Origin: a virus
Lineage: Duplodnaviria; Caudoviricetes
DNA: 38,393 nucleotides
IMG/VR virus record: IMGVR_UViG_3300032247_000374
Coordinates: 1 to 38,393 of that record
Strand: one strand, 5' to 3'
Of the stretch, positions 7,798 to 38,393 are shown one piece after another. The notes under the pieces were generated by a model. That model was given only the letters and a program-made list of their open reading frames with translations, was not told where the DNA came from and made no database searches. A program made the translations under genes and the position numbers. Position 1 is the first letter of the stretch. Every line of letters begins with the position of its first letter.

Positions 7798-9177
7798 ATG
7801 GCATCAGCAAACGTAGGTCTTTTAACATATAATTCTGGCGTATTTCATACTACGTCAACTTATTATTCTCCATCTGTTGTTATTCCAACGACGGGCCAGT
7901 ATTTGAATTCTATTTATTGTTTTCTTTCTAGAGTTGTGCCCTGGTCAACTGAAACTAATCCGCCGATGCCATCTCAGTCGCAAAAGTATATCAAAGAACT
8001 CTATAAAAACATGTTCATTGCGAAGAGAGTTACTTCAAGTGAAATGTCTCCTGTCGTTGAAAGAATTGACTGGGCTTCTGGTGAAGTGTTCGACTATTAT
8101 CGTGACGATATTGATATGTTCCAGAAAGATTCAAACGGAACAATTACAAAAAGATTCTATGTAAGAAACAAATTTGATCAAGTTTTTAAGTGTCTTTGGA
8201 ACAATAACGGCACTACTTCTACCAAAGAACCTTACTTTGAACCAGGCACATATTCTACTAATAATGTCTATCAAGGTTCAGACGGTTATAAATGGAAGTA
8301 TATGTATACTATTACATATGCAAACAAGATTAAATTTCTAGATGACACATGGATGCCCGTGCCTATGTCTAGTACTGTTCCTAATGCCGCAGACACTTTT
8401 GCTGGTTCAGGTTCGATTGATGTTATTAATGTAACAAATGGCGGATCTGGTTATGATCCAACGAACGCCGTTATTTACGTTACAGTTACTGGAGATGGAA
8501 AATATGCGGCAGGAAATGTTACTGTAACTTCAGGAGTTATCACTGACATTGCTGTCGCAAATACTGGTTCAAATTACACATATGCTAATGTTGCAATCAC
8601 ATCAACTATAGGATCAGGCGCTACTGCTGCGGTATATCCTTCTACGATTGGTGGACACGGATTCAATCCGATTTCTGAATTAGGATGTATGCATGTAATG
8701 ATTACTGCATCTTTTGAAAAATCTGAATCTGGAATATTACCAAATGATATTGACTTCAGACAAATTGGACTGGTTTCAAGTCCATATGTTTATTCTGGAG
8801 AAGAAAAGATTTTAGCAAATGGATCAATATATCAACTCACGACGGACTATATTGTTTCAACAGGATCAGGTGCATACACTAAAGATGAAGTAGTGTACCA
8901 GTCAAATAATGGATTATTAGCTGATGCATATTTTACTGCCACTGCGTTGAGTTTTGATTCGACTGCAAATCAATTAAAGTTACTAAATAATGTAGGTACT
9001 GCGAACTTAAATCAAATATTTTATGGCAACGATTCAGGCACAGGAAGAGTAGCGCTGCAAAAGAACGACACAATCTTTGTTCCATTCTCTGGTTATTTGA
9101 TGTACATTGAAAACAGAGAAGCTGTTACTAGAAGTGCTGATGGTTCTGAACAATTTAAACTAGTTTTAGGATATTAG
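7798..9177 (+). CDS. gp8: baseplate wedge subunit, T4 gp8-like
   Basis: 459 aa; RIDWASGEVFDYY, FYVRNKFDQVFKCLWNNNG, DGYKWKYMYTI, GGHGFNPISELG, DFRQIGL, SGYLMYIENR..R..EQFKLVL. Confidence 0.93.
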   Translation: MASANVGLLTYNSGVFHTTSTYYSPSVVIPTTGQYLNSIYCFLSRVVPWSTETNPPMPSQSQKYIKELYKNMFIAKRVTSSEMSPVVERIDWASGEVFDYYRDDIDMFQKDSNGTITKRFYVRNKFDQVFKCLWNNNGTTSTKEPYFEPGTYSTNNVYQGSDGYKWKYMYTITYANKIKFLDDTWMPVPMSSTVPNAADTFAGSGSIDVINVTNGGSGYDPTNAVIYVTVTGDGKYAAGNVTVTSGVITDIAVANTGSNYTYANVAITSTIGSGATAAVYPSTIGGHGFNPISELGCMHVMITASFEKSESGILPNDIDFRQIGLVSSPYVYSGEEKILANGSIYQLTTDYIVSTGSGAYTKDEVVYQSNNGLLADAYFTATALSFDSTANQLKLLNNVGTANLNQIFYGNDSGTGRVALQKNDTIFVPFSGYLMYIENREAVTRSADGSEQFKLVLGY

Positions 9178-9181
9178 AAGA

Positions 9182-12100
9182 ATGTTAAATTTTAATGTGG
9201 ATCCCTATTTTGACGATTTCGATCCAAGTAATAATTATCACAAGATTCTTTTTAAACCTGGTCGTGCTGTTCAAGCAAGAGAGTTAACTCAGGCGCAGAC
9301 AATTCTTCAGAATCAAATCTCTAATTTTGCAGACCATTTCTTTACTCAGAACACGCCAATCAAAGGCGGCAAGTTAACTATCAACACCAATGTTGAGTAT
9401 CTGAAACTAAACTATGAATATGCTGGTTCTGAAATTGTTGCTGCCGATCTAAAGAATCAATTTATCACAGACGATACTGATACTATTCGAGCACAAGTTA
9501 TTGCAACTGAAGAAGGCGTCACTGATGGTGATCCTCCTACTCTAATTCTAAATTATTATTCTTCTGATAAATTTTCAGCAAGTGCAAATGTTAGAAATCT
9601 AGATACATTAGAAGTCGTTGGTACAGTCGTTTCAGCAAACGCAAACGGCAAATCTTCTATTGCTTCTATTTCAAACGGTGTATTTTACATCGTCAATGGT
9701 TACTCAATGTCATCTAAACAAAATGATGATGGCACTTACAACAGATATTCTATTGGTAATTTTGTAGATGTATTGCCACAGACAATTATTCTGAATAAGT
9801 ATGACAGTATTCCGACAGCTAGAATTGGTCTAGATATCGTTGAGTATGTCACAGATTATGTTACAGATTCTACACTACTTGATCCTGCATTAGGTGCATC
9901 TAATTTTCAAGCGCCAGGTGCAGATCGATACACTATCAATTTAAATTTAACGACTAAGAAATCAACTGATACGGCGGGTTCAGATTCAAACTTTATTGAA
10001 TTGGCCAAAGTTGAATCGGGTCAAATTATCAGACTAGTGAATTCAACATCATATTCTCAGATTGATGATTACTTTGCAAAGAGGACATTCGAGACTAATG
10101 GTGACTATGTTGTTAACAACTTTAGTTTAATTCCAACAAAGAATACATTTCCAACAGGATCTGATAAGTATGTTCTCAGTGTCGGACCTGGCGTAGCATA
10201 TGTTCACGGATATAGAGCAGAAAATCAAGGCGCATTAAAACTTGACGGAAAAAGAGCGAGAACAACGTCCAACGTTAATAACAATATTATTACTCCATCT
10301 TATGGTAATTACTTTTATGTGAATACATTATTGGGTGCTAATGGTGAATATATCGACACCACTACACTTCAGACTATTGATTTTCATGTTAGTAATACGT
10401 TGATGATCAACACAACAAGCACTTCGACATATAATTCGACTCTTGCTGGAACAGGTAAATTACGTTTCCTTCGATACTCTACAAGTGGTACTGACTCTGA
10501 TACAACGTCTTACGTTTATAAAGCACACGTATCAGATTTATCTACCACATCTTTATCTGGCAGTATCACAAGTGCTACATCTACTGTTATAACCATCTCT
10601 GATGCCACTAATAAATTTTCCACCAGAGTCGCTAACTTATATGCTGGAATGACATTAAGAATTGATAGTGGTCCAGGAGCTGGACAAACAAGAACTATTC
10701 AATCTTATAACGCTTCGTCGAAACAACTCACAGTTTCCTCAGCGTTTACTGTTTTGCCAACGTCAGCTTCAACATTTTCGATTAAATTTGATATTAAAGA
10801 CATTAAGAGTATTGCAAGAGCTAGTGGATCTGGACCATACACTATATACGGTTCTGCACAGATTGATAGTAGAAGTAAGACTGGTCCACTAGGAACAGGC
10901 GACACAGTTCTCTCTGATGCTGGTGATGGAGAATTGGTTTTCCCTATTGGAAATCAGTACGTTAACACTGTAGCCGACACATCATATGTTTCATCTCAAG
11001 TGTATCGTGGTCAGTCATTTACGACAACCACAACTGGTGTTTATAAAACTATAACTATTGATTTTGCAGCACAATCGGTGTTAAACTTTACAAGAACTGC
11101 TGCAACAGAAAGCATCGATTCAGTAAAACAAAATTTTATCGTTATAGTCACAGATCCTCAGACTAATGCTAATTTGTCCGCTGGTCAAATTGTTCCATTT
11201 GTTAGTAATGCTGTCCCAGGATTGAATAGAACTGTTGTTGTTAATTCGGCAAAGACTAGTGTTACTCTATCTGCACCAGACCTTCAACCATTTGTTGCAT
11301 CAGTCTATTGTAGAATGAACGTTATTGGGGCAGACAATACAAGTTTTGTAAGAAAAACTAAAGCATTAGCTGTTGCGAATACTTATTCATTAGGAATAAG
11401 TGGCACTTCTGGCACAGTTAACACTAATACGTTAATAGATTTGACTAGAGGGCAAATCTATATCAATAGTACTTCTGCTGTTGTTAAAAATGGACTTCCA
11501 CAATCTCTTTATGTTTCTGACGTTAAGAGAATTGTTAAAATTATCGATCCGGGTGCAACAACACCAACGTTAGCAATGTTAACGGATGTGACTAAAGATA
11601 TAACTAACGATTACATCTTCGATAATGGTCAACGAGACACTTACTATGGTCATGCATCGATAAAATTAAAACCTGGTAGATCTGTTCCAACAAGACTTTG
11701 GATTCTGTTCGATTTCTATGAACATTCTGGTGGAGACGGTTATTTCGATGTTCGGTCATATACAAACGAAGACTATGCCGAAATTGGATCTTTCACTAGT
11801 TCTAGTAACACACCATATAAATTAAGAGATTGTATCGATTTTAGACCAGCCGTTAAAAATGTTCAATCTAATCCTAATTTAATTAAGTATTCTGTTACAC
11901 CAACACCAAGTAATTTTTATGGATCGTTAATTCCAGAAGATGAATCATCTTTCACTTGTGATTACTATTATTACTTAGGAAGAAAAGACATATTAGTTAT
12001 CACCAAAGATTCAGTTATTAAACTAATTGAGGGTGTTCCTAGTTTAAATCCAGAGTATCCATCTGAGGAAGCTAATAGTCTAGTTCTAGCAAAACTAGTA

Positions 12101-13255
12101 TATGATCCATATACTGCGTATATTCCTGGTGAATATCCTGGCGTTATTCCAAATTTATCAATCATTCCTGTCGCTCATAAAACATGGTTAATGAAAGATA
12201 TTACTACACTGAACGACAGAATTAAAAATCTTGAGTATTACACATCACTAAATCTATTAGAACAATCAACAGCATCCCTACAAGTTCAAGACGATCTTGG
12301 ATTAAATAGATTTAAAAATGGTATCTTAGTAGATAACTTTACAACATACAGTATCGCAGACACTCGTGATAAGAGTTATTTTGCACAGATAAACACAAAA
12401 GATAAAACTTTATCGGCTACTACAATCACTGAAAGTTTTCATTTGTATAACAAAGATTATGATCCTCTTTTATCTAAACAAACGTCTGGTGATTTAGTAG
12501 ATTATAAAGCACATAAAATTGGCACAACAAATGTCTTCACTTTACCTTATACACAGACGGAATTAGTTACTCAAAAATTAGCATCCAGATTTATCAATAT
12601 TAATTCTTTCTCTGCAAAAAATATTGAAGGTGTTATGCAGATTTCTCCTGCAATTGACAATTGGGTGGACGTTATAACTCCTCCGTCAAGTCAAGGAACA
12701 CAAGGTACAGTTGGAGTTGAAACACCAGTTTCTACACCGGTGGCGCAAACACCAGTAGTGACTGTGCCTCCACCTGAGTATTTCAAAATTGGACCTATTC
12801 CAGGAACATCTGTTACTTCTGTTTTCACCAGTAACAATCCTCCTTCTGGCGCTGGCGCAGTTTATATTTCACAACAAGGTGATGAGTGGGATCAATTTAG
12901 ACTTGAATATGGCGTATGGGGATATCCGGATCTAGGTGTAACGAATAAAACTTTTAGTAGAACATACACCGTAACATTCACTAAAAGCGGATACTATCAG
13001 TTCGAAGGTGCGGTTGACGATACAGGTTCAGTATCACTTGACGGCACTGATATTTTTGGAGCAATGGGATATTTCGGTGGAAAATACACACAGTATCTTT
13101 ACGTTGCCGCAGGTAATCATACGATTTCTTACACAGCAACAAATACGATAGATCTTGGATGTATGGCTTTAAGAGTCTCCTATTATGGCGAAGAACCATA
13201 TGTTGCAGTCGAACTAACACCATATATTTGGGAAACTTTCTCAGGTGGTTATTAA
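9182..13255 (+). CDS. VrlC/DUF4815-like baseplate/tail structural protein, N-terminal segment, with C-terminal PA14-like domain
   Basis: 1357 aa; NVDPYFDDF..ILFKPGRAVQARELTQAQTILQNQI, APGADR, AKRTFETNGDY, FDNGQRD, LRDCIDFRP, RIKNLEYYTSLNLLE, RFKNGILVDNF; position after gp8 as in T4-like aquatic phages. Confidence 0.85.
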   Translation: MLNFNVDPYFDDFDPSNNYHKILFKPGRAVQARELTQAQTILQNQISNFADHFFTQNTPIKGGKLTINTNVEYLKLNYEYAGSEIVAADLKNQFITDDTDTIRAQVIATEEGVTDGDPPTLILNYYSSDKFSASANVRNLDTLEVVGTVVSANANGKSSIASISNGVFYIVNGYSMSSKQNDDGTYNRYSIGNFVDVLPQTIILNKYDSIPTARIGLDIVEYVTDYVTDSTLLDPALGASNFQAPGADRYTINLNLTTKKSTDTAGSDSNFIELAKVESGQIIRLVNSTSYSQIDDYFAKRTFETNGDYVVNNFSLIPTKNTFPTGSDKYVLSVGPGVAYVHGYRAENQGALKLDGKRARTTSNVNNNIITPSYGNYFYVNTLLGANGEYIDTTTLQTIDFHVSNTLMINTTSTSTYNSTLAGTGKLRFLRYSTSGTDSDTTSYVYKAHVSDLSTTSLSGSITSATSTVITISDATNKFSTRVANLYAGMTLRIDSGPGAGQTRTIQSYNASSKQLTVSSAFTVLPTSASTFSIKFDIKDIKSIARASGSGPYTIYGSAQIDSRSKTGPLGTGDTVLSDAGDGELVFPIGNQYVNTVADTSYVSSQVYRGQSFTTTTTGVYKTITIDFAAQSVLNFTRTAATESIDSVKQNFIVIVTDPQTNANLSAGQIVPFVSNAVPGLNRTVVVNSAKTSVTLSAPDLQPFVASVYCRMNVIGADNTSFVRKTKALAVANTYSLGISGTSGTVNTNTLIDLTRGQIYINSTSAVVKNGLPQSLYVSDVKRIVKIIDPGATTPTLAMLTDVTKDITNDYIFDNGQRDTYYGHASIKLKPGRSVPTRLWILFDFYEHSGGDGYFDVRSYTNEDYAEIGSFTSSSNTPYKLRDCIDFRPAVKNVQSNPNLIKYSVTPTPSNFYGSLIPEDESSFTCDYYYYLGRKDILVITKDSVIKLIEGVPSLNPEYPSEEANSLVLAKLVYDPYTAYIPGEYPGVIPNLSIIPVAHKTWLMKDITTLNDRIKNLEYYTSLNLLEQSTASLQVQDDLGLNRFKNGILVDNFTTYSIADTRDKSYFAQINTKDKTLSATTITESFHLYNKDYDPLLSKQTSGDLVDYKAHKIGTTNVFTLPYTQTELVTQKLASRFININSFSAKNIEGVMQISPAIDNWVDVITPPSSQGTQGTVGVETPVSTPVAQTPVVTVPPPEYFKIGPIPGTSVTSVFTSNNPPSGAGAVYISQQGDEWDQFRLEYGVWGYPDLGVTNKTFSRTYTVTFTKSGYYQFEGAVDDTGSVSLDGTDIFGAMGYFGGKYTQYLYVAAGNHTISYTATNTIDLGCMALRVSYYGEEPYVAVELTPYIWETFSGGY
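12686..12700 (+). repeat. 15-bp direct repeat copy 1 (tcaagtcaaggaaca, SSQGT)
   Basis: Exact second copy at 14236-14250; both in codon phase. Confidence 0.9.
12900..13185 (+). other. PA14/GLEYA-like putative carbohydrate-binding domain
   Basis: FTKSGYYQFEGAVDDTGSVSLDG...LYVAAGNHTI resembles the PA14 pattern G.Y.F....DD...+.+DG...G.H.I; boundaries approximate. Confidence 0.6.
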
Positions 13256-13263
13256 CCACCTGA
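13241..13263. promoter_or_regulatory. perfect hairpin over the stop codon (TCAGGTGGTT-att-AACCACCTGA)
   Basis: 10-bp perfect inverted repeat, 3-nt loop; TAA 13253-13255 at the apex. No immediate U-tract, so function is uncertain. Confidence 0.6.
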
Positions 13264-13293
13264 TGAATAAAATTAATTTTTAAGAGAAAGTAA

Positions 13294-14790
13294 ATGGCAA
13301 CAACAACATCAATACCATCAACACCGGTTGCAATTCCATATTGCCGAGAAAAACAAATTAGTTTTTCAGTGTCTAATTTACTTTTCAACACTGAATTGGA
13401 TGCATGGTTGGATGAGTATCGTGTCACACGATTAATTAGAAGACCTAATACCATAAAAGTTACCAACACTTCTGGAAAATTTAAAGTTGGTGATACTGTT
13501 GGATATAAACCAACATCATCAACGTTTATCGGAGTTGGAACAGTTATTGATGTATACAAAGAAGAATCTGGTTCAATGTACAATATGACATTGTACATTA
13601 TTGATGATTTAGAAAATGTTCCAACAAATCTAGCTGTAGGCGGAACATTATATAATGGTTTCTTCGATTCGAGTGGATCATATTACAGTTCTTCGGATTC
13701 AGGCACAATATCAGCACTTGAACACTTATCAGGTAAAATTGCAACATCTGGTTCAGTAACAACAACTGTAACATTAAACGGTAGAGCATCTTCTGTTACT
13801 GACTACTATGTTGGTCAAACATTTAATATTGTAACTGTATCTGCGAAAACATCAACTGATACATTACATTCTGATGAAGTTGATGTGGATTATCCTATCA
13901 TAACAATTACTGCATATAACGGCTCGACTAAAGTTGCTACACTAAGTTCTGCTGTTTCTGTTATCGCTGGTGTCACTGTTTATTCGATTGGAAAACCTAG
14001 AAGTAATGAGATCGGTAAATGTTCTGGCGTTTTTTATATGCGTGGTGGTGTTTTTCCAACAGGTAAAAGAATCTTTAGACTCGATAATAGATATGTTTCA
14101 GTTAACGCCGGTCAATTGACACATAGACCAGGTACAGAAACAACGTATGCTACGGCAACTTATTTTGCATCTGGCGTAACTCAAAAAGCTACTGATTCTG
14201 AATTTTCTGCTGGAACAGGATCATCCACGTCAACATCAAGTCAAGGAACAACCGCATTATCAACACCAATTGCTAAAAGTGCTCCTGTTGTTGCTTCGGT
14301 TGATTATATTCCATGCACTGACGTTCATTATGGTGGCGGTTGTCCAGATCCTGATACATTAATCTTTATGCCAGACTTCTTGTGGGTTCGTGCGGGTGAT
14401 CTAAATGTCGGTGATTCTATCTTAACAATCCATGAACACACAAGAGATCCAGGTACATTTAAGATTCTAGAAGCAGAAAGAATTGTTCAACCCAAAGTTG
14501 AGATTGAATTTGCGAATGGCCAAAAACTTAAAGTATCCACTACTCATAAGTTTCTAATGTCTGACGATACATGGAAGAAAGTCTGCGACATTTCTGTCGG
14601 TGAAGCTGTTATGGGAATGAATTACGACGTTATCTATGATCTAAGTAGCAAAGAAATTGTTTCGATCACAGATATTGGAGAAGGTGAAGTAATTAAATTT
14701 GAGATTGAAGATGCACATACATACATTACAGAAGGTTTAGTTTCACACAATCAGAAAGCTGTGATAGACACAAACGTAGTACTCGCATAA
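13294..14790 (+). CDS. VrlC/DUF4815-like middle segment with C-terminal Hint (intein-like) domain
   Basis: 498 aa; IPYCREKQISF..LLFNTELDAWLD, SNEIGKCSGVF, FPTGKRIFRL, ATATYFASG resemble the mid-region of VrlC-like proteins; Hint motifs in the last 150 aa. Confidence 0.8.
   Translation: MATTTSIPSTPVAIPYCREKQISFSVSNLLFNTELDAWLDEYRVTRLIRRPNTIKVTNTSGKFKVGDTVGYKPTSSTFIGVGTVIDVYKEESGSMYNMTLYIIDDLENVPTNLAVGGTLYNGFFDSSGSYYSSSDSGTISALEHLSGKIATSGSVTTTVTLNGRASSVTDYYVGQTFNIVTVSAKTSTDTLHSDEVDVDYPIITITAYNGSTKVATLSSAVSVIAGVTVYSIGKPRSNEIGKCSGVFYMRGGVFPTGKRIFRLDNRYVSVNAGQLTHRPGTETTYATATYFASGVTQKATDSEFSAGTGSSTSTSSQGTTALSTPIAKSAPVVASVDYIPCTDVHYGGGCPDPDTLIFMPDFLWVRAGDLNVGDSILTIHEHTRDPGTFKILEAERIVQPKVEIEFANGQKLKVSTTHKFLMSDDTWKKVCDISVGEAVMGMNYDVIYDLSSKEIVSITDIGEGEVIKFEIEDAHTYITEGLVSHNQKAVIDTNVVLA
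14236..14250 (+). repeat. 15-bp direct repeat copy 2 (tcaagtcaaggaaca, SSQGT)
   Basis: Identical to 12686-12700. Confidence 0.9.
14341..14751 (+). other. Hint / BIL-type autoprocessing domain (137 aa, no endonuclease)
   Basis: Block A CPDPDTLIFM..RAGDLNVGDSI, block B LKVSTTHKFL, blocks F/G EIVSITDIGEGEVIKFEIEDAHTYITEGLVSHN; +1 residue Gln. Confidence 0.88.
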
Positions 14791-14808
14791 CAACGTGGAA
14801 AAAAATAA

Positions 14809-16467
14809 ATGGCACTAACGATTCTTGATCCATTAGCACAATCATTCATCATTGATTCTGCATCTTATCCATATGGTGTGTTTCTGAGTTCTATTCGGTT
14901 GTTTTTCAGAACAAAACCAACTGTTCAGATTCCAGTTCACTTATCTATCGTCACAACTCAGAACGCATATCCAACTGCGAAGATGTTAGACTATTCTGAA
15001 GTCGTTTTGCATCCAAGTGATATTAAAGTTTCAAATGAACCACAGTACTTAGATTCTACAACATATACTGAGTTTACTTTTCCTGCGCCTGTTTTTATTA
15101 AACCGGATGAATTGTATGCGTTTGTTTTAAGAACTAATTCGTCTGAGTACAATCTGTGGTGCGCACAACAAAATGATTTGCCTATACCATCTTCTGTAAA
15201 ATTGGTATCAACTGATGCGACTCCGGAAACTTTATCAAAAATAGCCAAGAGTCCATATATTGGAACATTGTATGAATCTCAGAACGGTATCAACTATGAT
15301 GCTGATCAAACAAAAGATTTAATGTTCGTCATCAATAGATGCAGTTTCACGGTGAGTTCTCAACCCGTGTTGAATTTTATAGTTCCAGATGGATTAAATA
15401 AAAATAGTCTGATTGAATCTGGTGGAAGTAAAAACTATTCAGCTAACGTCATATATGACCAGTACAATCTATCTGTCTCGGAACTTAAATCTGAGAAAAC
15501 TAGAATCGATTATTCAACACAATTAATGTCAAATACTTCTTTCTCATTAGAAGCAGATAAACCTGTAAGTCCTGGTATTTATGGAGTTCCTTCTGCGAAA
15601 ATGATTTATTTGAATGATAATAATGGAAAACGTGTTCTAACAAAAGAGAATACAAGAGAATCATTTTATCTAAATGCAACATTAAGCTCTGAAGATGAGA
15701 AAGTTTCTCCTGTAATTTCTGATGATGGTACTAATTTATTTGTATCTAAAAATATTATTAATGAAATGCCTATCTCAAATAATATTATCGTTATTACTGG
15801 AGGCGGTACAGGATACTTAGGTGGTGCAAGTGGAAGATTGTATGGTAATATCTCCATTTCAGCACCAAATGAATCTGATGGTCAACAGGCAACGATTGAA
15901 GGTTATTGCACTTCAGGTGTACTATCTAAAATTTATGTGACTGATCCTGGATCTGGATACACAACGAATCCAACAATCTCAATCTCTGCTGCAAACACTG
16001 TCCCAGCCAATGTTTCGGTTTTCGGTGAAACATCATCTGCTGGCGGAAATGGTTTAGTTAGATATCAAACTATTCCTGTCGTTCTTGCATCAGGAAATGA
16101 TTCTGGGGATCTTCGTGTTTATATTACTGCGTATAGACCACTATACACGGACTTTTATGTTTATTATAAAATTATATCTAGAGGCGACACTCTTCAAATC
16201 GAAGAATCCTCATGGCAAAAGATGACGGTGACCAGTAAGAATACTAGATATTCAAGAACTAGAGATGAACTAATTGAATTAGAATTAGCACCTGGAACAG
16301 GAGGGGTAGCACAAAACTATGTGGCATACACTAATCCTAATACAGGAATAAAATATAACGATTTCTACAAATATGCAATTAAAATCGTCATGTCATCGTA
16401 TGATTCAACTTTCTGTCCATTCATAAAAGATATGAGAGTCATTGCACTACCACCAGGTTCATATTAA
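14809..16467 (+). CDS. VrlC/DUF4815-like C-terminal segment
   Basis: 552 aa; starts at DPLAQSF..GVFLSSIRLFF, T.FTFPAPVF, GTLYESQNG, DQTKDLMF, VSPVI, FYKYAIKIVM..P.IKDMRVIAL, characteristic of the VrlC-like C-terminal half. Confidence 0.83.
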   Translation: MALTILDPLAQSFIIDSASYPYGVFLSSIRLFFRTKPTVQIPVHLSIVTTQNAYPTAKMLDYSEVVLHPSDIKVSNEPQYLDSTTYTEFTFPAPVFIKPDELYAFVLRTNSSEYNLWCAQQNDLPIPSSVKLVSTDATPETLSKIAKSPYIGTLYESQNGINYDADQTKDLMFVINRCSFTVSSQPVLNFIVPDGLNKNSLIESGGSKNYSANVIYDQYNLSVSELKSEKTRIDYSTQLMSNTSFSLEADKPVSPGIYGVPSAKMIYLNDNNGKRVLTKENTRESFYLNATLSSEDEKVSPVISDDGTNLFVSKNIINEMPISNNIIVITGGGTGYLGGASGRLYGNISISAPNESDGQQATIEGYCTSGVLSKIYVTDPGSGYTTNPTISISAANTVPANVSVFGETSSAGGNGLVRYQTIPVVLASGNDSGDLRVYITAYRPLYTDFYVYYKIISRGDTLQIEESSWQKMTVTSKNTRYSRTRDELIELELAPGTGGVAQNYVAYTNPNTGIKYNDFYKYAIKIVMSSYDSTFCPFIKDMRVIALPPGSY

Positions 16468-16468
16468 A

Positions 16469-16705
16469 ATGTATAACGAAACTTTAGTTAAGGTGGACGG
16501 GTTAAATTTTGTCAGAGACATCAATACCATGCAGCTCTCTAACACCGACTACGCTGAGAGAAATGAATACTTTCTTAAAGTTAAACTATTGAAGACACAG
16601 AAACAAGAAATAAATAAACTAAATGATGAACTCTCATCGATTAAGAATGACATGCTAGATATTAAGAAACTATTAGCAGAATTAATCAAGGATAAAAATG
16701 TCTAA
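16469..16705 (+). CDS. small conserved coiled-coil protein following the VrlC-like gene
   Basis: ATG at 16469 (2 nt after the upstream stop) preferred over the track start at 16442; VKVDG.NFVRD..NTD then heptads INKLNDELSSIKNDMLDIKKLL. Confidence 0.75.
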   Translation: MYNETLVKVDGLNFVRDINTMQLSNTDYAERNEYFLKVKLLKTQKQEINKLNDELSSIKNDMLDIKKLLAELIKDKNV

Positions 16706-35847: not shown

Positions 35848-35855
35848 TATAAATA
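35848..35855 (+). promoter_or_regulatory. T4 late promoter (TATAAATA)
   Basis: Exact consensus in the 34-nt intergenic gap before ATG 35880. Confidence 0.8.
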
Positions 35856-35879: not shown

Positions 35880-38393
35880 ATGGTAAGTAAGATTAAAGAA
35901 AAGTCGATTGCTAATAATGCAATCACAACATCAAAATTATCAGCAGAAGTTGTAGCCGTTACCGGCATAAAAGTATCTTCTATTGTATATCTGAATGATG
36001 ACACTGCTGCTAACACTTTAGGTGGTGATGTAATTACAGTCAATGGTTCTGGATTCTCTCCAACCACTACCGTATATGTTGACAGAACTCAAGCGGGTGT
36101 TGTTACTTATCTTTCAAACAATCAGATAACTTTCAGTTCACCTGCAAAGACTGCTGGTTCTTATATTCTTTATCTCTACAATGCTGATGGTGGATCTGCT
36201 GCATATATTCCTGGCATCAATTACTCTGGTGTTCCTGCATGGTCAACTGCATCAGGTTCTATTGGCACAACATATGAATTCACAAGTTTTACGGGTAACG
36301 TTTCCACACTTTCTGCAACATCAGATTCTACAGTTTACTATCTTTTAAATTCAGGTACATTACCACCAGGCTCAACTCTGAATGCAAACACTGGTGTTAT
36401 CTCAGGTAACACTAGTGTCATTAATTCACAGACAACATATAATTTTACTATTGAAGCAAAAGATCAAGAGAATCAGGGAACACTTAGAAACTTCTCTATC
36501 ACTATTAATCCAGATGTTGTCACTTGGAATTCACCTGCAAATGGTGCAACGATTAATGTTAGTGTTGGTACAGCAGCATCTCAATCATTAAATGCTTCAA
36601 GTGCTGGTGGTCAATCTATAACATATACAGCAAATACACTACCAACTGGACTCAGCATAAGTGGCAATACTGTTACGGGTACACCAACAGTAGTTCAATC
36701 AATAACTAGTTTAATAACTGCAACTGCTGCGTTAACAAATAGAACTGCAACAAGAATATTAAATTGGATTGTTGCGCTTGCAAATGATTTAAATTTTCCA
36801 TATGTTTCAACACTATTGAAAACTAGTGCATCATCTACTCGCAGTACGACAGTAGTTGACTCAAGTACTAATGCTTTTACAGTAACACGAAACGGAGCAC
36901 CTAGCACTGGTTGGACTTCTCCATATCAAACTGATGGATATTGGGGTAATTATTTTAATGGCAGTACAGATTATTTAACGACTCCGGCAAATGCTGCTTT
37001 TGCTTTTGGTACTGGTGATTTTACAGTTGAATCGTGGGTTTACACTACTGCTAGAATTGGTTCTGGTAATTATGGTTCCCAAATTGCAGGATGTAACATT
37101 TTTGGCACAAGTGCAGATTGGATTTTTAATATAAGTCCTACTGGAAATTTGTTTTTTCAAATAGGTTCTTCTCCTACTGGCGCAATACTTTCATCTTCTA
37201 CAGTTCCGTTGAATACATGGACTCATATTGCAGCGGTTCGTTCTAGTGGTGTGGTCACTCTTTATATAAACGGGACAAATGCAGGAGGTTCTGGTTCTTA
37301 TACATCATCAGTGACTAACGCTTCTACGCCTTTTAGTATCGGCGGCGCTTCTAATGGTTCTGCAAACAGTTTGTTGCAAGGTTACATATCTAATCTTCGT
37401 ATCGTAAAAGGTACAGCAGTGTACACAGGCGCATTCACGCCCAGCACGACTCCACTCACGGCGATTACCAACACTTCTTTACTCACCTGCCAAAGCAACA
37501 GGTTCAAAGACAACAGTACCAACTCTCTTACATTTACATCAAATGGTACACCACAGGTAACGCCTTACTACTATCCCAGCACGTTTACTGCGCCCGCTGC
37601 TAGTCCTGGTGCTGGGTATTTTAATGGAACATCAGATTATTTGACTGGTGCAGCGAATGCGGCCCTAGCAGTTGGCACTGGGCAATTCACAATCGAAATG
37701 TGGATTTATTTTAATAGCCTAGCGTCAGCTCCAAATGAAATATTTACAACTAGCACTGATGTGACTAGCGGGAAGTTAGTTATATATTATGCGTCAAACA
37801 GTTTGCAAGTTGTTGCATCTGGTGGCGCCGGAGGGACGTCCGCAAGTTTTACTCCAACAACGGGGCAGTGGTATCACATTGCTGCATCAAGGGATGCTTC
37901 AAACAACCAAAGACTATTTGTAAATGGGGCCTTGTTAGCGACTGCAACTTCAACAAATAATTATTTACAAAACGGATTTGCTCTTGGGCGCAGTGGAGGT
38001 GGGGCTGGGGCCAACTACACAAATGGATATATATCAAACTTACGTTTGGTTGTTGGCACAGCCGTCTATACCGCTGCTTTTACACCTCCAACATCACCAG
38101 TAACAGCAATCTCTGGCACTCAACTCCTGCTCAACCTCGCAGACAGCAACTATACTAGCGCGACGAACGGGGTCCAGAACAACACGTTCATTGACAGCAG
38201 CAACTACGCCTTCCCGATCACTAGGAACGGAACCGCCACGCAGGGTTCTGTCACTCCGTATTGGCCTAATGGGTATTGGAGTAATTACTTTGATGGGTCA
38301 AGTTATATAACCGCGCCCAACAATGTTGCTTTTGCTTTTGGTACTGGAAATTTTACAATTGAAGCATGGGTTTATGTAACTAATTTTTCTTCA
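35880..38393 (+). CDS. adhesin-like protein: IPT/TIG + Ig-like + tandem LamG/ConA-like domains (truncated by window end)
   Basis: Absent from the ORF track (no stop in window). My translation: MVSKIKEKSIANNAITTSKL..GGDVITVNGSGF..; FGTGDFTVESWVY..NTWTHIAAVRSSGVVTLYING..GYISNLRIVKGTAVY, a second full LamG and the start of a third; open for 838 codons. Confidence 0.88.
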   Translation, partial: MVSKIKEKSIANNAITTSKLSAEVVAVTGIKVSSIVYLNDDTAANTLGGDVITVNGSGFSPTTTVYVDRTQAGVVTYLSNNQITFSSPAKTAGSYILYLYNADGGSAAYIPGINYSGVPAWSTASGSIGTTYEFTSFTGNVSTLSATSDSTVYYLLNSGTLPPGSTLNANTGVISGNTSVINSQTTYNFTIEAKDQENQGTLRNFSITINPDVVTWNSPANGATINVSVGTAASQSLNASSAGGQSITYTANTLPTGLSISGNTVTGTPTVVQSITSLITATAALTNRTATRILNWIVALANDLNFPYVSTLLKTSASSTRSTTVVDSSTNAFTVTRNGAPSTGWTSPYQTDGYWGNYFNGSTDYLTTPANAAFAFGTGDFTVESWVYTTARIGSGNYGSQIAGCNIFGTSADWIFNISPTGNLFFQIGSSPTGAILSSSTVPLNTWTHIAAVRSSGVVTLYINGTNAGGSGSYTSSVTNASTPFSIGGASNGSANSLLQGYISNLRIVKGTAVYTGAFTPSTTPLTAITNTSLLTCQSNRFKDNSTNSLTFTSNGTPQVTPYYYPSTFTAPAASPGAGYFNGTSDYLTGAANAALAVGTGQFTIEMWIYFNSLASAPNEIFTTSTDVTSGKLVIYYASNSLQVVASGGAGGTSASFTPTTGQWYHIAASRDASNNQRLFVNGALLATATSTNNYLQNGFALGRSGGGAGANYTNGYISNLRLVVGTAVYTAAFTPPTSPVTAISGTQLLLNLADSNYTSATNGVQNNTFIDSSNYAFPITRNGTATQGSVTPYWPNGYWSNYFDGSSYITAPNNVAFAFGTGNFTIEAWVYVTNFSS

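What the first reader, a model, noticed from the sequence alone, without database searches (positions are those of the whole stretch)
9182..16467. VrlC/DUF4815-like baseplate protein split into three genes, the first two ending in an accessory domain
Seen: three ORFs (1357, 498, 552 aa), each with its own ATG and purine-rich leader, separated by double in-frame stops, so a single-base sequencing error does not explain it. From my recollection of T4-like VrlC homologues, the motifs SP..DNW.D, IPY.R..I.F and DPLAQSF usually follow one another in one polypeptide. Here the breaks fall between these blocks, and the freed C-termini carry a PA14-like and a Hint domain. Inference: gene fission created display sites for exchangeable domains on the baseplate.
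Basis: partly seen in the sequence, partly recalled or inferred. Interest (0 to 1): 0.78.

Follow-up and report, generated by a model that had tools for sequence, protein, structure and literature searches.

The report
Three-piece phage baseplate with swappable caps
An uncultured T4-like phage encodes its giant baseplate "tripod" protein (VrlC) as three genes instead of one; the first piece ends in a predicted sugar-binding domain and the second in an intein-like domain that likely cuts itself off, and close relatives broken at the same places carry different end-caps, which makes these breaks look like evolutionary swap sites.

Summary
Confirmed. Three ORFs (1357, 498, 552 aa) tile single-chain VrlC/DUF4815 in order, in unsplit environmental relatives and in four cultured phages. 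The three-way split is clade-conserved, with spacers of different length and frame, so it is no error. It arose in two steps: break B (before DP.AQ) is shared with sister lineages; break A (after P..DNW) came later and removed a ~90-100 aa segment. Breaks recur independently at three hotspots. Caps are exchanged: relatives 82-89% identical carry different caps (Hint, CFI-box-like, CCVxTA, IICxxL, S74, none), and one PA14-like allele is swapped (core 90%, domain 43%). Corrections: PA14-like and Hint domains also sit inside unsplit VrlC, so fission did not create display; inside this clade the Hint is fixed and under purifying selection. It has Cys1, block-B His and His-Asn but no +1 Cys/Ser/Thr; its family has Lys at +1/+2 in 149 of 160 domains, hinting at isopeptide chemistry (untested). 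My paper searches found no description. This scan has noted two-way splits with Hint caps many times, and a three-way split once, on other DNA.

The parts
9182..13255 (+). ORF1, 1357 aa: N-terminal piece of the VrlC/DUF4815 tripod-like baseplate protein plus a C-terminal PA14-like domain
9182..12676 (+). Conserved VrlC core of ORF1 (aa 1-~1165), ending just after the P..DNW motif (aa 1156)
   Evidence: DUF4815 179.6 bits; phrog_358 5-1119; phage 812 chain 9euf E=1e-21; L026 2-1185 to 3-1179, 52%
12677..12766 (+). Pro/Thr-rich variable stalk (aa 1166-1195) in place of the ~90-125 aa segment that joins DNW to PY.R in unsplit relatives
12767..13189 (+). PA14/CBM-like jelly-roll domain (aa ~1196-1336); Asp-Asp at aa 1279-1280
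   Evidence: Pfam PA14 E=0.032; AF2 model pLDDT 75-89 over model residues 61-140; fold hits Z 8.0-8.7
13256..13293 (+). Junction A spacer, 38 nt, two more stops in the ORF1 frame, leader AGAGAAAG; ORF2 begins in another frame
13294..14790 (+). ORF2, 498 aa: middle piece of VrlC plus Hint cap
13333..14193 (+). ORF2 core (aa ~14-300): two conserved blocks found in all four cultured VrlCs tested, with a lineage-specific insert between them (hotspot C of other lineages lies in this insert)
14194..14340 (+). Ser/Thr/Pro-rich linker ending in invariant Gly-Gly-Gly (aa 301-349)
14341..14751 (+). Hint domain (aa 350-486): Cys350, Ser415-x-Thr417-His418, His485-Asn486, all invariant in 27 of 27
14752..14787 (+). 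12-aa tail; +1 is Gln here (V23/Q3/K1 in 27), Lys at +2 (Lys488; Lys at +1 or +2 in 27 of 27)
14791..14808 (+). Junction B spacer, 18 nt with second in-frame TAA directly before the ATG
14809..16467 (+). ORF3, 552 aa: C-terminal piece of VrlC starting M-x5-DPLAQSF
   Evidence: phrog_358 1422-1583
7798..9177 (+). Upstream context: T4 gp8-like baseplate wedge gene (gp25 and gp6 homologues further upstream)
16442..16705 (+). Downstream context: small virion protein (phrog_473); a small gene of similar size follows VrlC in the four cultured phages viewed

Best explanation
The locus is one VrlC/tripod baseplate gene broken into three conserved genes at two variable linkers; the three chains likely co-assemble on the baseplate, the first likely displaying a swappable sugar-binding (PA14/CBM-like) domain at its free end and the second carrying a Hint cap that likely excises itself. 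Shown: collinear tiling, clade-wide conservation, two-step origin (break B older, break A later), independent recurrence of the breaks, exchange of caps among close relatives, purifying selection and intact catalytic residues in the Hint. Inferred: non-covalent co-assembly into a trimeric tripod as in phage 812; glycan binding; N-S acyl shift at Gly349/Cys350 and Asn486 cyclisation, with the thioester resolved by water or by the conserved Lys at +1/+2 (an isopeptide), so that the Hint leaves the mature particle. The breaks are best read as permissive linker hotspots where cassettes land, with or without a stop codon, rather than as an invention needed for display.
For: Tiling on unsplit L026 (2107 aa): ORF1 to 3-1179, ORF2 to 1259-1555, ORF3 to 1562-2105; same order in 4 of 4 cultured single-gene VrlCs. 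Three-way split in L002-4, L076-78, and break A in L001, with spacers of 38/24/10/9 nt at A and 18/0 nt at B. Trees of the ORF3 region (118 rows) and ORF1 core (34 rows) both put the window's clade as sister to B-split lineages (99*, 100*). AU tests reject one origin for B splits (p 2e-59), for Hint+helix caps (p 7e-4) and for A splits with L209 (p 1e-6). Cap swaps: L005 CFI-box-like vs L212 Hint+helix, 82%/84% identical; L086 Hint+helix vs L090 CCVxTA, 86%/89%; P0172 vs L002 core 90%, PA14-like 43%. Hint vs core against L002: amino-acid changes 19 of 137 vs 85 of 286 codons at equal synonymous share (0.43 vs 0.40). Hint family: 1069 clusters at E<=0.001 on many host proteins; of 160 His-Asn ends among the best 150 proteins, Lys at +1/+2 in 149, Cys+1 in 0, Lys at +3 to +10 only 1-7%. 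ACG-2014f has only ~24 aa between DNW and PY.R in one chain, so the lost segment is dispensable.
Against: No biochemical or proteomic data; assembly of the three chains, cleavage and glycan binding are all unshown. In the window's clade the cap types are fixed (27 of 27 Hint; 12 of 12 break-A clusters of the clade PA14-like). The AU test on the PA14 swap did not reject the vertical tree (p=0.086). Most caps seen in relatives (CCVxTA, IICxxL, CFI-box-like) have no known activity, no mutual homology by hhalign (probabilities 0.1-7%) and, for CCVxTA, no fold match (best Z 4.1), so 'processing cap' is supported only for Hint and S74. PA14 is not separated from CBM6/35 or GH2-N folds (ties within 1 Z). 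Trees are 'quick' with long branches; cap type still follows the tree more than chance (10 changes vs shuffled mean 15.3), so swaps are occasional.
Confidence: 0.58

Rival explanations
1. Selfish or neutral passengers: caps are mobile cassettes that land in permissive linkers and are tolerated because they remove themselves or do no harm; the fissions are neutral and confer nothing.
For: Unrelated domains replace one another at the same site and capless splits exist; the Hint family decorates many unrelated proteins, only 6 of the best 150 matching my VrlC profiles; split and unsplit forms are interleaved (L102 unsplit vs L112 split, 78-85%).
Against: A C-terminal cap could be lost by a single nonsense change, yet 27 of 27 ORF2 clusters keep it with fewer amino-acid changes than the core; no endonuclease domain in the 137-aa Hint (sequence).
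Confidence: 0.2
2. One reading: all terminal domains, the Hint included, stay on the virion as displayed, exchangeable adhesion modules made possible by fission.
For: Fits the PA14-like domain (CBM-type fold, allele swap); phage 812 tripod domains are proposed glycan and cell-wall binders (PMC13433997, passages).
Against: Hint catalytic residues invariant; S74 caps in relatives are a known auto-cleaving chaperone family (function from established knowledge); PA14-like copies are carried internally without fission.
Confidence: 0.1
3. The Hint is a ligase: it activates the ORF2 Gly-Gly-Gly end as a thioester and joins it to a lysine or N-terminus of ORF3 or a neighbouring subunit, re-joining or cross-linking the tripod, as BIL2 does for ubiquitin-like domains.
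For: Invariant GGG before Cys350; Lys bias after His-Asn; precedent of Hint-made isopeptides in Tetrahymena BIL2 (PMC8616854, passages); in unsplit relatives ORF2's end and ORF3's start are contiguous.
Against: The same break is carried with non-Hint caps or none in 12 of 15 distinct B-split rows, so ligation is not required; the conserved Lys lies in cis in the 12-aa tail, not on ORF3.
Confidence: 0.1
4. Artefact, pseudogene or recoding (read-through, frameshift or hop) giving one long protein.
For: Junction B is in frame; only the possible source run bridges the junctions.
Against: Same breaks in relatives at 70-85% identity with spacers in all three relative frames; 27 clusters of full-length stand-alone ORF2 and 97 listed stand-alone ORF3 clusters starting M-x1-10-DP.AQ; synonymous-rich divergence.
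Confidence: 0.02

Closest known systems
Single-chain VrlC/DUF4815 (PF16075, phrog_358): HTVC008M VrlC AGE60391 (2001 aa), phiM12 AGR47761 (1802 aa), vB_OspM_OC QIG65714 (1942 aa), ACG-2014f AIX30306 (2406 aa)
   Same: Same gene position after the gp8 wedge gene, same blocks in the same order.
   Different: One gene there, three here; the DNW to PY.R segment is replaced by stalk, PA14-like domain and stop; Hint cap before DPLAQ.
Staphylococcus phage 812 tripod protein (1152-aa DUF4815 chain in PDB 9euf/9euj/9tic; Binovsky et al., PMC13433997) and Listeria phage A511 gp106
   Same: Sequence match of ORF1 (E=1e-21); an unsplit relative aligns across DNW, PY.R and DPLAQ. In Bacillus phage homologues the Cwp84-lectin-like domain starts at ~811 (PMC11406892, table passage), close to DPLAQ (~790 in the 812 chain), so ORF3 probably begins with the 'leg' domain (inference).
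   Different: 812 tripod is one chain of 1152 aa, homotrimeric, whose domains move up to 88 A on contraction while covalently tethered; here the tethers at two linkers are cut at gene level and the total is 2407 aa.
A-type bacterial intein-like (BIL) domains; Tetrahymena BIL2 of the BUBL locus
   Same: Cys1, block-B His, His-Asn end, no +1 Cys/Ser/Thr, location in a hypervariable region (definition from PMC7765530 passages). BIL2 forms a Lys isopeptide (PMC8616854 passages).
   Different: No PT-HINT (PF07591) match for ORF2 at E<=0.01; sits on a phage virion protein with a 12-aa tail; family-wide Lys at +1 or +2.
PA14 domain (PF07691) and CBM6/CBM35/GH2 N-terminal jelly rolls
   Same: Beta-sandwich fold: 3abz residues 392-557 Z 8.3 (rmsd 3.5, 114 aligned), 4i3g 442-590 Z 8.0, Marinomonas PA14 among Foldseek hits.
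   Different: Below Pfam cut-off; tied with GH2-N (6ncw Z 8.7) and CBM6/35; no binding data.
Peptidase S74 intramolecular chaperones of tail fibres (PF13884)
   Same: C-terminal self-removing cap on a virion protein; S74 itself serves as a cap at hotspot C in L109/L111/L114.
   Different: Unrelated fold and chemistry to the window's Hint.

Membership tests
VrlC/DUF4815 (tripod-like) | DUF4815 / phrog_358 match above threshold | tested here: met
   ORF1 179.6 bits vs cut-off 30; phrog_358 E=1e-208 for ORF1, 1e-82 for ORF3
VrlC/DUF4815 (tripod-like) | All conserved blocks present, in order | tested here: met
   Across the three ORFs. The ~90-100 aa DNW to PY.R segment is missing but is also short in single-chain ACG-2014f
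VrlC/DUF4815 (tripod-like) | Position after gp8-like wedge gene in a T4-like baseplate operon | tested here: met
VrlC/DUF4815 (tripod-like) | Encoded as one polypeptide (as in the cultured examples viewed) | tested here: not met
   Three genes; this is the variant
VrlC/DUF4815 (tripod-like) | Forms trimers on the baseplate | not testable with these tools
   Needs virion structure or proteomics
Class 1 intein | Cys/Ser at 1, block-B His, terminal His-Asn | tested here: met
   C350, H418 (S-x-T-H rather than T-x-x-H), H485, N486 in 27 of 27
Class 1 intein | Cys/Ser/Thr at +1 | tested here: not met
   V23, Q3, K1 of 27; family: C 0, S 5, T 1 of 161
Class 1 intein | Interrupts a conserved host site whose halves are rejoined | tested here: not met
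   Only a 12-aa variable tail follows
A-type BIL | His-Asn end without obligatory +1 nucleophile, in a hypervariable region | tested here: met
   definition from PMC7765530
A-type BIL | Sequence match to PT-HINT (PF07591) | tested here: inconclusive
   Not listed for ORF2 at E<=0.01; precomputed for one distant relative, P0029
A-type BIL | Autocleavage activity | not testable with these tools
   Needs expression and mass spectrometry
Hedgehog Hog (Hint + adduct-recognition region) | C-terminal adduct-recognition region after the Hint | tested here: not met
   12-aa tail only in the window; helical extensions occur in other caps (L062, L098, L212)
PA14 (PF07691) | Profile score above gathering cut-off | tested here: not met
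   14.5 bits vs 24, E=0.032
PA14 (PF07691) | PA14-type beta-sandwich fold | tested here: inconclusive
   Jelly roll matched, Z 8.0-8.3 to PA14-bearing regions but tied with GH2-N and CBM6/35; model mean pLDDT 63.7
PA14 (PF07691) | Ca-dependent glycan binding through an Asp-Asp motif (motif recalled, from no call) | not testable with these tools
   Asp1279-Asp1280 present in the window's clade, absent from many internal copies
CFI-box-CTERM (NF041770), for caps of relatives | Score above cut-off 40 | tested here: not met
   L005 cap 15.2 bits, L007 small ORF 15.8 bits; used here only as 'CFI-box-like'

The most novel reading that the evidence does not exclude
Aquatic T4-like phages run a modular end-cap system on virion proteins: recurrent gene breaks free C-termini that take interchangeable caps, and the Hint cap is a new chemical class that uses a conserved Lys at +1/+2 as nucleophile to make isopeptide bonds, ATP-free, which trims or cross-links the baseplate tripod whose moving domains are no longer covalently tethered.
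Probability: 0.2. Interest if true: 0.82.

Novelty: new variant of a known kind. Interest (0 to 1): 0.58.

Why it matters
VrlC/tripod proteins are the largest baseplate components of cyanophages, pelagiphages, Ackermannviridae and Herelleviridae, and the one solved example is a single chain whose domains swing far during infection. A natural three-chain version marks which linkers need no covalent bond, gives ready-made domain boundaries for structural work, and shows hotspots where receptor-binding and self-processing modules are exchanged. The Lys-after-His-Asn Hint family (over 1000 clusters) offers a simple, testable lead to a lysine-based splicing or ligation chemistry.

Tried and rejected
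Complex prediction of ORF1(994-1167) + ORF3(1-185) + ORF2(1-349): 'no answer' (score 0.77, but a control with ORF3 replaced scored 0.65); not used as evidence either way. Promoter/terminator scan: fewer sites than shuffles (20 vs 31.8; 1 vs 3.7); TATAAATA (T4 late promoter, recalled) occurs twice in the window, neither in this locus, not above chance. Solved-structure search with ORF3: no hit. tblastn of the ORF2 core against GenBank phages: no match. First ORF3 scan of viral contigs found nothing. hhalign among CCVxTA, IICxxL and CFI-box-like caps: no homology shown. CCVxTA model (pLDDT 82, all helical): no PDB match above Z 4.1, only weak unnamed phage hits in BFVD; ESM Atlas gave unnamed viral clusters at low recognition. 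Search with P0185 returned only distant relatives (~30%), mostly unsplit, so its gene context is unknown. Runs X2, X3, X5 hold small shares and no listed piece spans a junction; not used for habitat or support. No tRNAs in the window. GC3 of the accessory domains (0.25, 0.27) is close to the cores (0.18-0.23): no sign of recent import. My PA14 motif regex undercounts (misses L002, L078, L109, L114). L154 and L161 show single breaks among unsplit kin and may be errors; not counted as hotspots. Exact phage 812 domain boundaries could not be read: the appendix (MOESM1) was too large, so the mapping of breaks to base/fin/leg domains stays an inference.
Full report
OBSERVATION. The window is the baseplate and fibre operon of a T4-like phage: gp25, gp6 and gp8 homologues precede the locus, and a small virion gene and fibre genes follow. 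The three ORFs are as described. At junction A, ORF1 stops at 13255, two more TAA follow in frame, and ORF2 starts 38 nt later in another frame; at junction B an 18-nt spacer holds a second in-frame TAA directly before the ORF3 ATG. Contigs of run X1 bridge both junctions at flat depth, differing only by a stop one codon earlier in ORF1; X1 may be the source sample.

ONE PROTEIN IN THREE PIECES. ORF1 matches DUF4815 and phrog_358 5-1119, ORF3 phrog_358 1422-1583. On the close unsplit relative L026 (2107 aa) ORF1 maps to 3-1179 (52%), ORF2 to 1259-1555 (41%) and ORF3 to 1562-2105 (47%). Profiles of the three regions hit 4 of 4 cultured single-gene VrlCs in order, e.g. HTVC008M 1067-1231, 1320-1459, 1474-1631. 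The only solved relative is the 1152-aa DUF4815 chain of PDB 9euf/9euj/9tic, entries that the phage 812 baseplate paper lists; I take it to be the tripod protein, which is trimeric and whose domains move up to 88 A on contraction (PMC13433997: abstract, outline, passages, section 24; appendix not readable). About 90-125 residues that join DNW to PY.R in most relatives (median 108 over 110 ORFs) are gone in the window's clade; ACG-2014f has only ~24 there in one chain.

THE SPLIT IS REAL AND CONSERVED. Of 40 hits to ORF2, 27 are full-length stand-alone proteins of 495-522 aa at 66-100% identity, all ending in the same Hint. Of the 120 listed hits to ORF3, 97 start within 12 residues of DP.AQ, 17 carry a 160-215 aa N-terminal extension (a different break) and 6 lack the motif. 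Loci L002-4 and L076-78 have all three genes, and L001 has break A before its contig ends. Spacers at A are 38, 24, 10 and 9 nt, covering all frames; at B 18 or 0. Error, pseudogene and conserved recoding are excluded.

HISTORY. Among 118 distinct ORF3-region sequences from loci L002-L155 plus the window (133 usable rows before removing duplicates; rows without a full ORF3 match were dropped), the script scored 74 unsplit, 3 split at A+B, 12 at B only, 23 at a third site C inside the ORF2 insert, and 6 open or unclassified. These are best-scoring hits of capped scans, not a random sample. Trees of the ORF3 region and of the ORF1 core agree that the window's clade is sister to B-split lineages (L005, L006, L212), so B is older and A was added. 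B arose at least twice (L032/L136 lie among unsplit forms; AU p 2e-59). A arose at least twice: L209 breaks in the middle of the same segment with no cap (AU p 1e-6), and P0185, a distant protein without context, ends there with another domain. Unsplit forms nest among split ones (L026; L102 vs L112 at 78-85%), implying re-fusion or repeated fission.

CAPS ARE EXCHANGED. At B: Hint (window's clade), CCVxTA helical domain followed by a small CFI-box-like ORF (9 rows), CFI-box-like (L005), Hint with helical extension (L211/212), or none (L032, L136). At C: Hint+helix, IICxxL, CCVxTA, S74 or none. Most follow a Pro- or Gly-rich linker. L005 and L212 are 82% and 84% identical over both proteins yet differ in cap; so do L086 and L090 (86%, 89%). 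Cap type still tracks the tree (10 changes among 25 rows, shuffled mean 15.3, 0 of 300 as low). At A, all 12 clusters of the clade carry the PA14-like domain, but P0172 is 90% identical to L002 in the core and 43% in that domain, and 35-49% like internal copies in other lineages; the AU test for this swap was not significant (p 0.086).

THE ORF1 DOMAIN. Pfam PA14 E=0.032. The AF2 model (mean pLDDT 63.7, core 75-89) is a jelly roll matching GH2-N, PA14-bearing glucosidase regions and CBM6/35 at Z 8.0-8.7 or E 1e-4 to 1e-3. Homologues sit internally next to site C in split and unsplit relatives, so display does not need fission. CBM folds in VrlC homologues are proposed to bind host polysaccharide (PMC11406892, passages); glycan binding here is inferred.

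THE HINT. Residues 350-486; Gly347-349, Cys350, His418, His485, Asn486 invariant in 27 of 27; +1 never Cys/Ser/Thr. It is more conserved than the core (86% vs 69% to the window; 19 of 137 vs 85 of 286 codons changed at equal synonymous divergence), which is purifying selection, not recent exchange. The family has 1069 clusters at E<=0.001. In the best 150 proteins (166 domains, 160 with His-Asn) Lys stands at +1 in 89 and at +2 in 62, at either in 149, against 1-7% at +3 to +10 and 4.5% background; rows are related, so this is no independent count, but the flanks are unrelated and the Lys shifts position. It fits A-type BIL features (PMC7765530, passages); BIL2 shows that a Hint can make a Lys isopeptide (PMC8616854, passages). 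Most likely the cap activates Gly349 as a thioester, cyclises Asn486 and leaves; whether water, Lys488 or a partner takes the acyl group is open.

LITERATURE AND EARLIER NOTES. Searches for VrlC+baseplate, CFI-box, Hint domain+phage+virion, BIL+autoproteolysis+phage tail, DUF4815 and gene fission/split gene+baseplate (listings only, plus passages of PMC4621102, PMC7029224 and PMC3556154) gave no description of a split VrlC or of these caps; the library lacks most subscription papers. The scan's own notes report two-way splits with Hint caps in at least eight other windows, a three-way split in one related genome, and the Lys after stacked Hints once; these are unchecked notes and are not counted as support.

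VERDICT. Real, conserved, new variant of a known protein family. Assembly, cleavage and binding remain untested. Interest 0.58.

Noticed in passing
L006:9571-9990, L007:9571-10020, L093:9572-10000 and kin: A conserved 139-149 aa ORF (Cys/His-rich start, weak CFI-box-CTERM match) sits between the CCVxTA cap and the DP.AQ gene at break B, but not where CCVxTA caps site C; possibly a dedicated partner.
   Followed up: partly
L212:11505-12065: A 186-aa ORF between the Hint+helix cap and the last VrlC piece; by eye like a permuted papain-type (YiiX/YebB, recalled) protease; no Pfam hit at E<=0.05.
   Followed up: partly
L009:9178-9564 (CCVxTA domain): A 120-aa all-helical phage domain with invariant Cys-Cys start, confident model (pLDDT 82) and no PDB match above Z 4.1; a 1220-member unnamed Atlas cluster is nearest.
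   Followed up: partly
window:13252: The assembly of run X1 and database protein P0161 read a stop here, making ORF1 1356 aa (ending Gly-Gly) instead of 1357.
   Followed up: yes
window:19954-28662: 2902-aa protein with 12 He_PIG (Ig-like) repeats and no PHROG match, in the host-recognition cluster after VrlC.
   Followed up: no
window:31919-35845 and 35880-38393: Three related fibre-like genes (fn3/TIG/He_PIG plus glycine-rich or laminin-G domains); the last runs off the contig end and follows a TATAAATA at 35848.
   Followed up: no
window:5661-7784: 707-aa ORF between the gp7-like and gp8-like genes with no Pfam or PHROG match; length varies in relatives (696 aa in L001, 628 aa in L002).
   Followed up: no
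L245:6001-13194: A C-split first piece of 2397 aa, about 600 aa longer than its kin, ending in Hint+helix.
   Followed up: no
P0029, P0190-P0194: Proteins with two to four tandem Hints of the same family, separated by short basic or Gly linkers.
   Followed up: no
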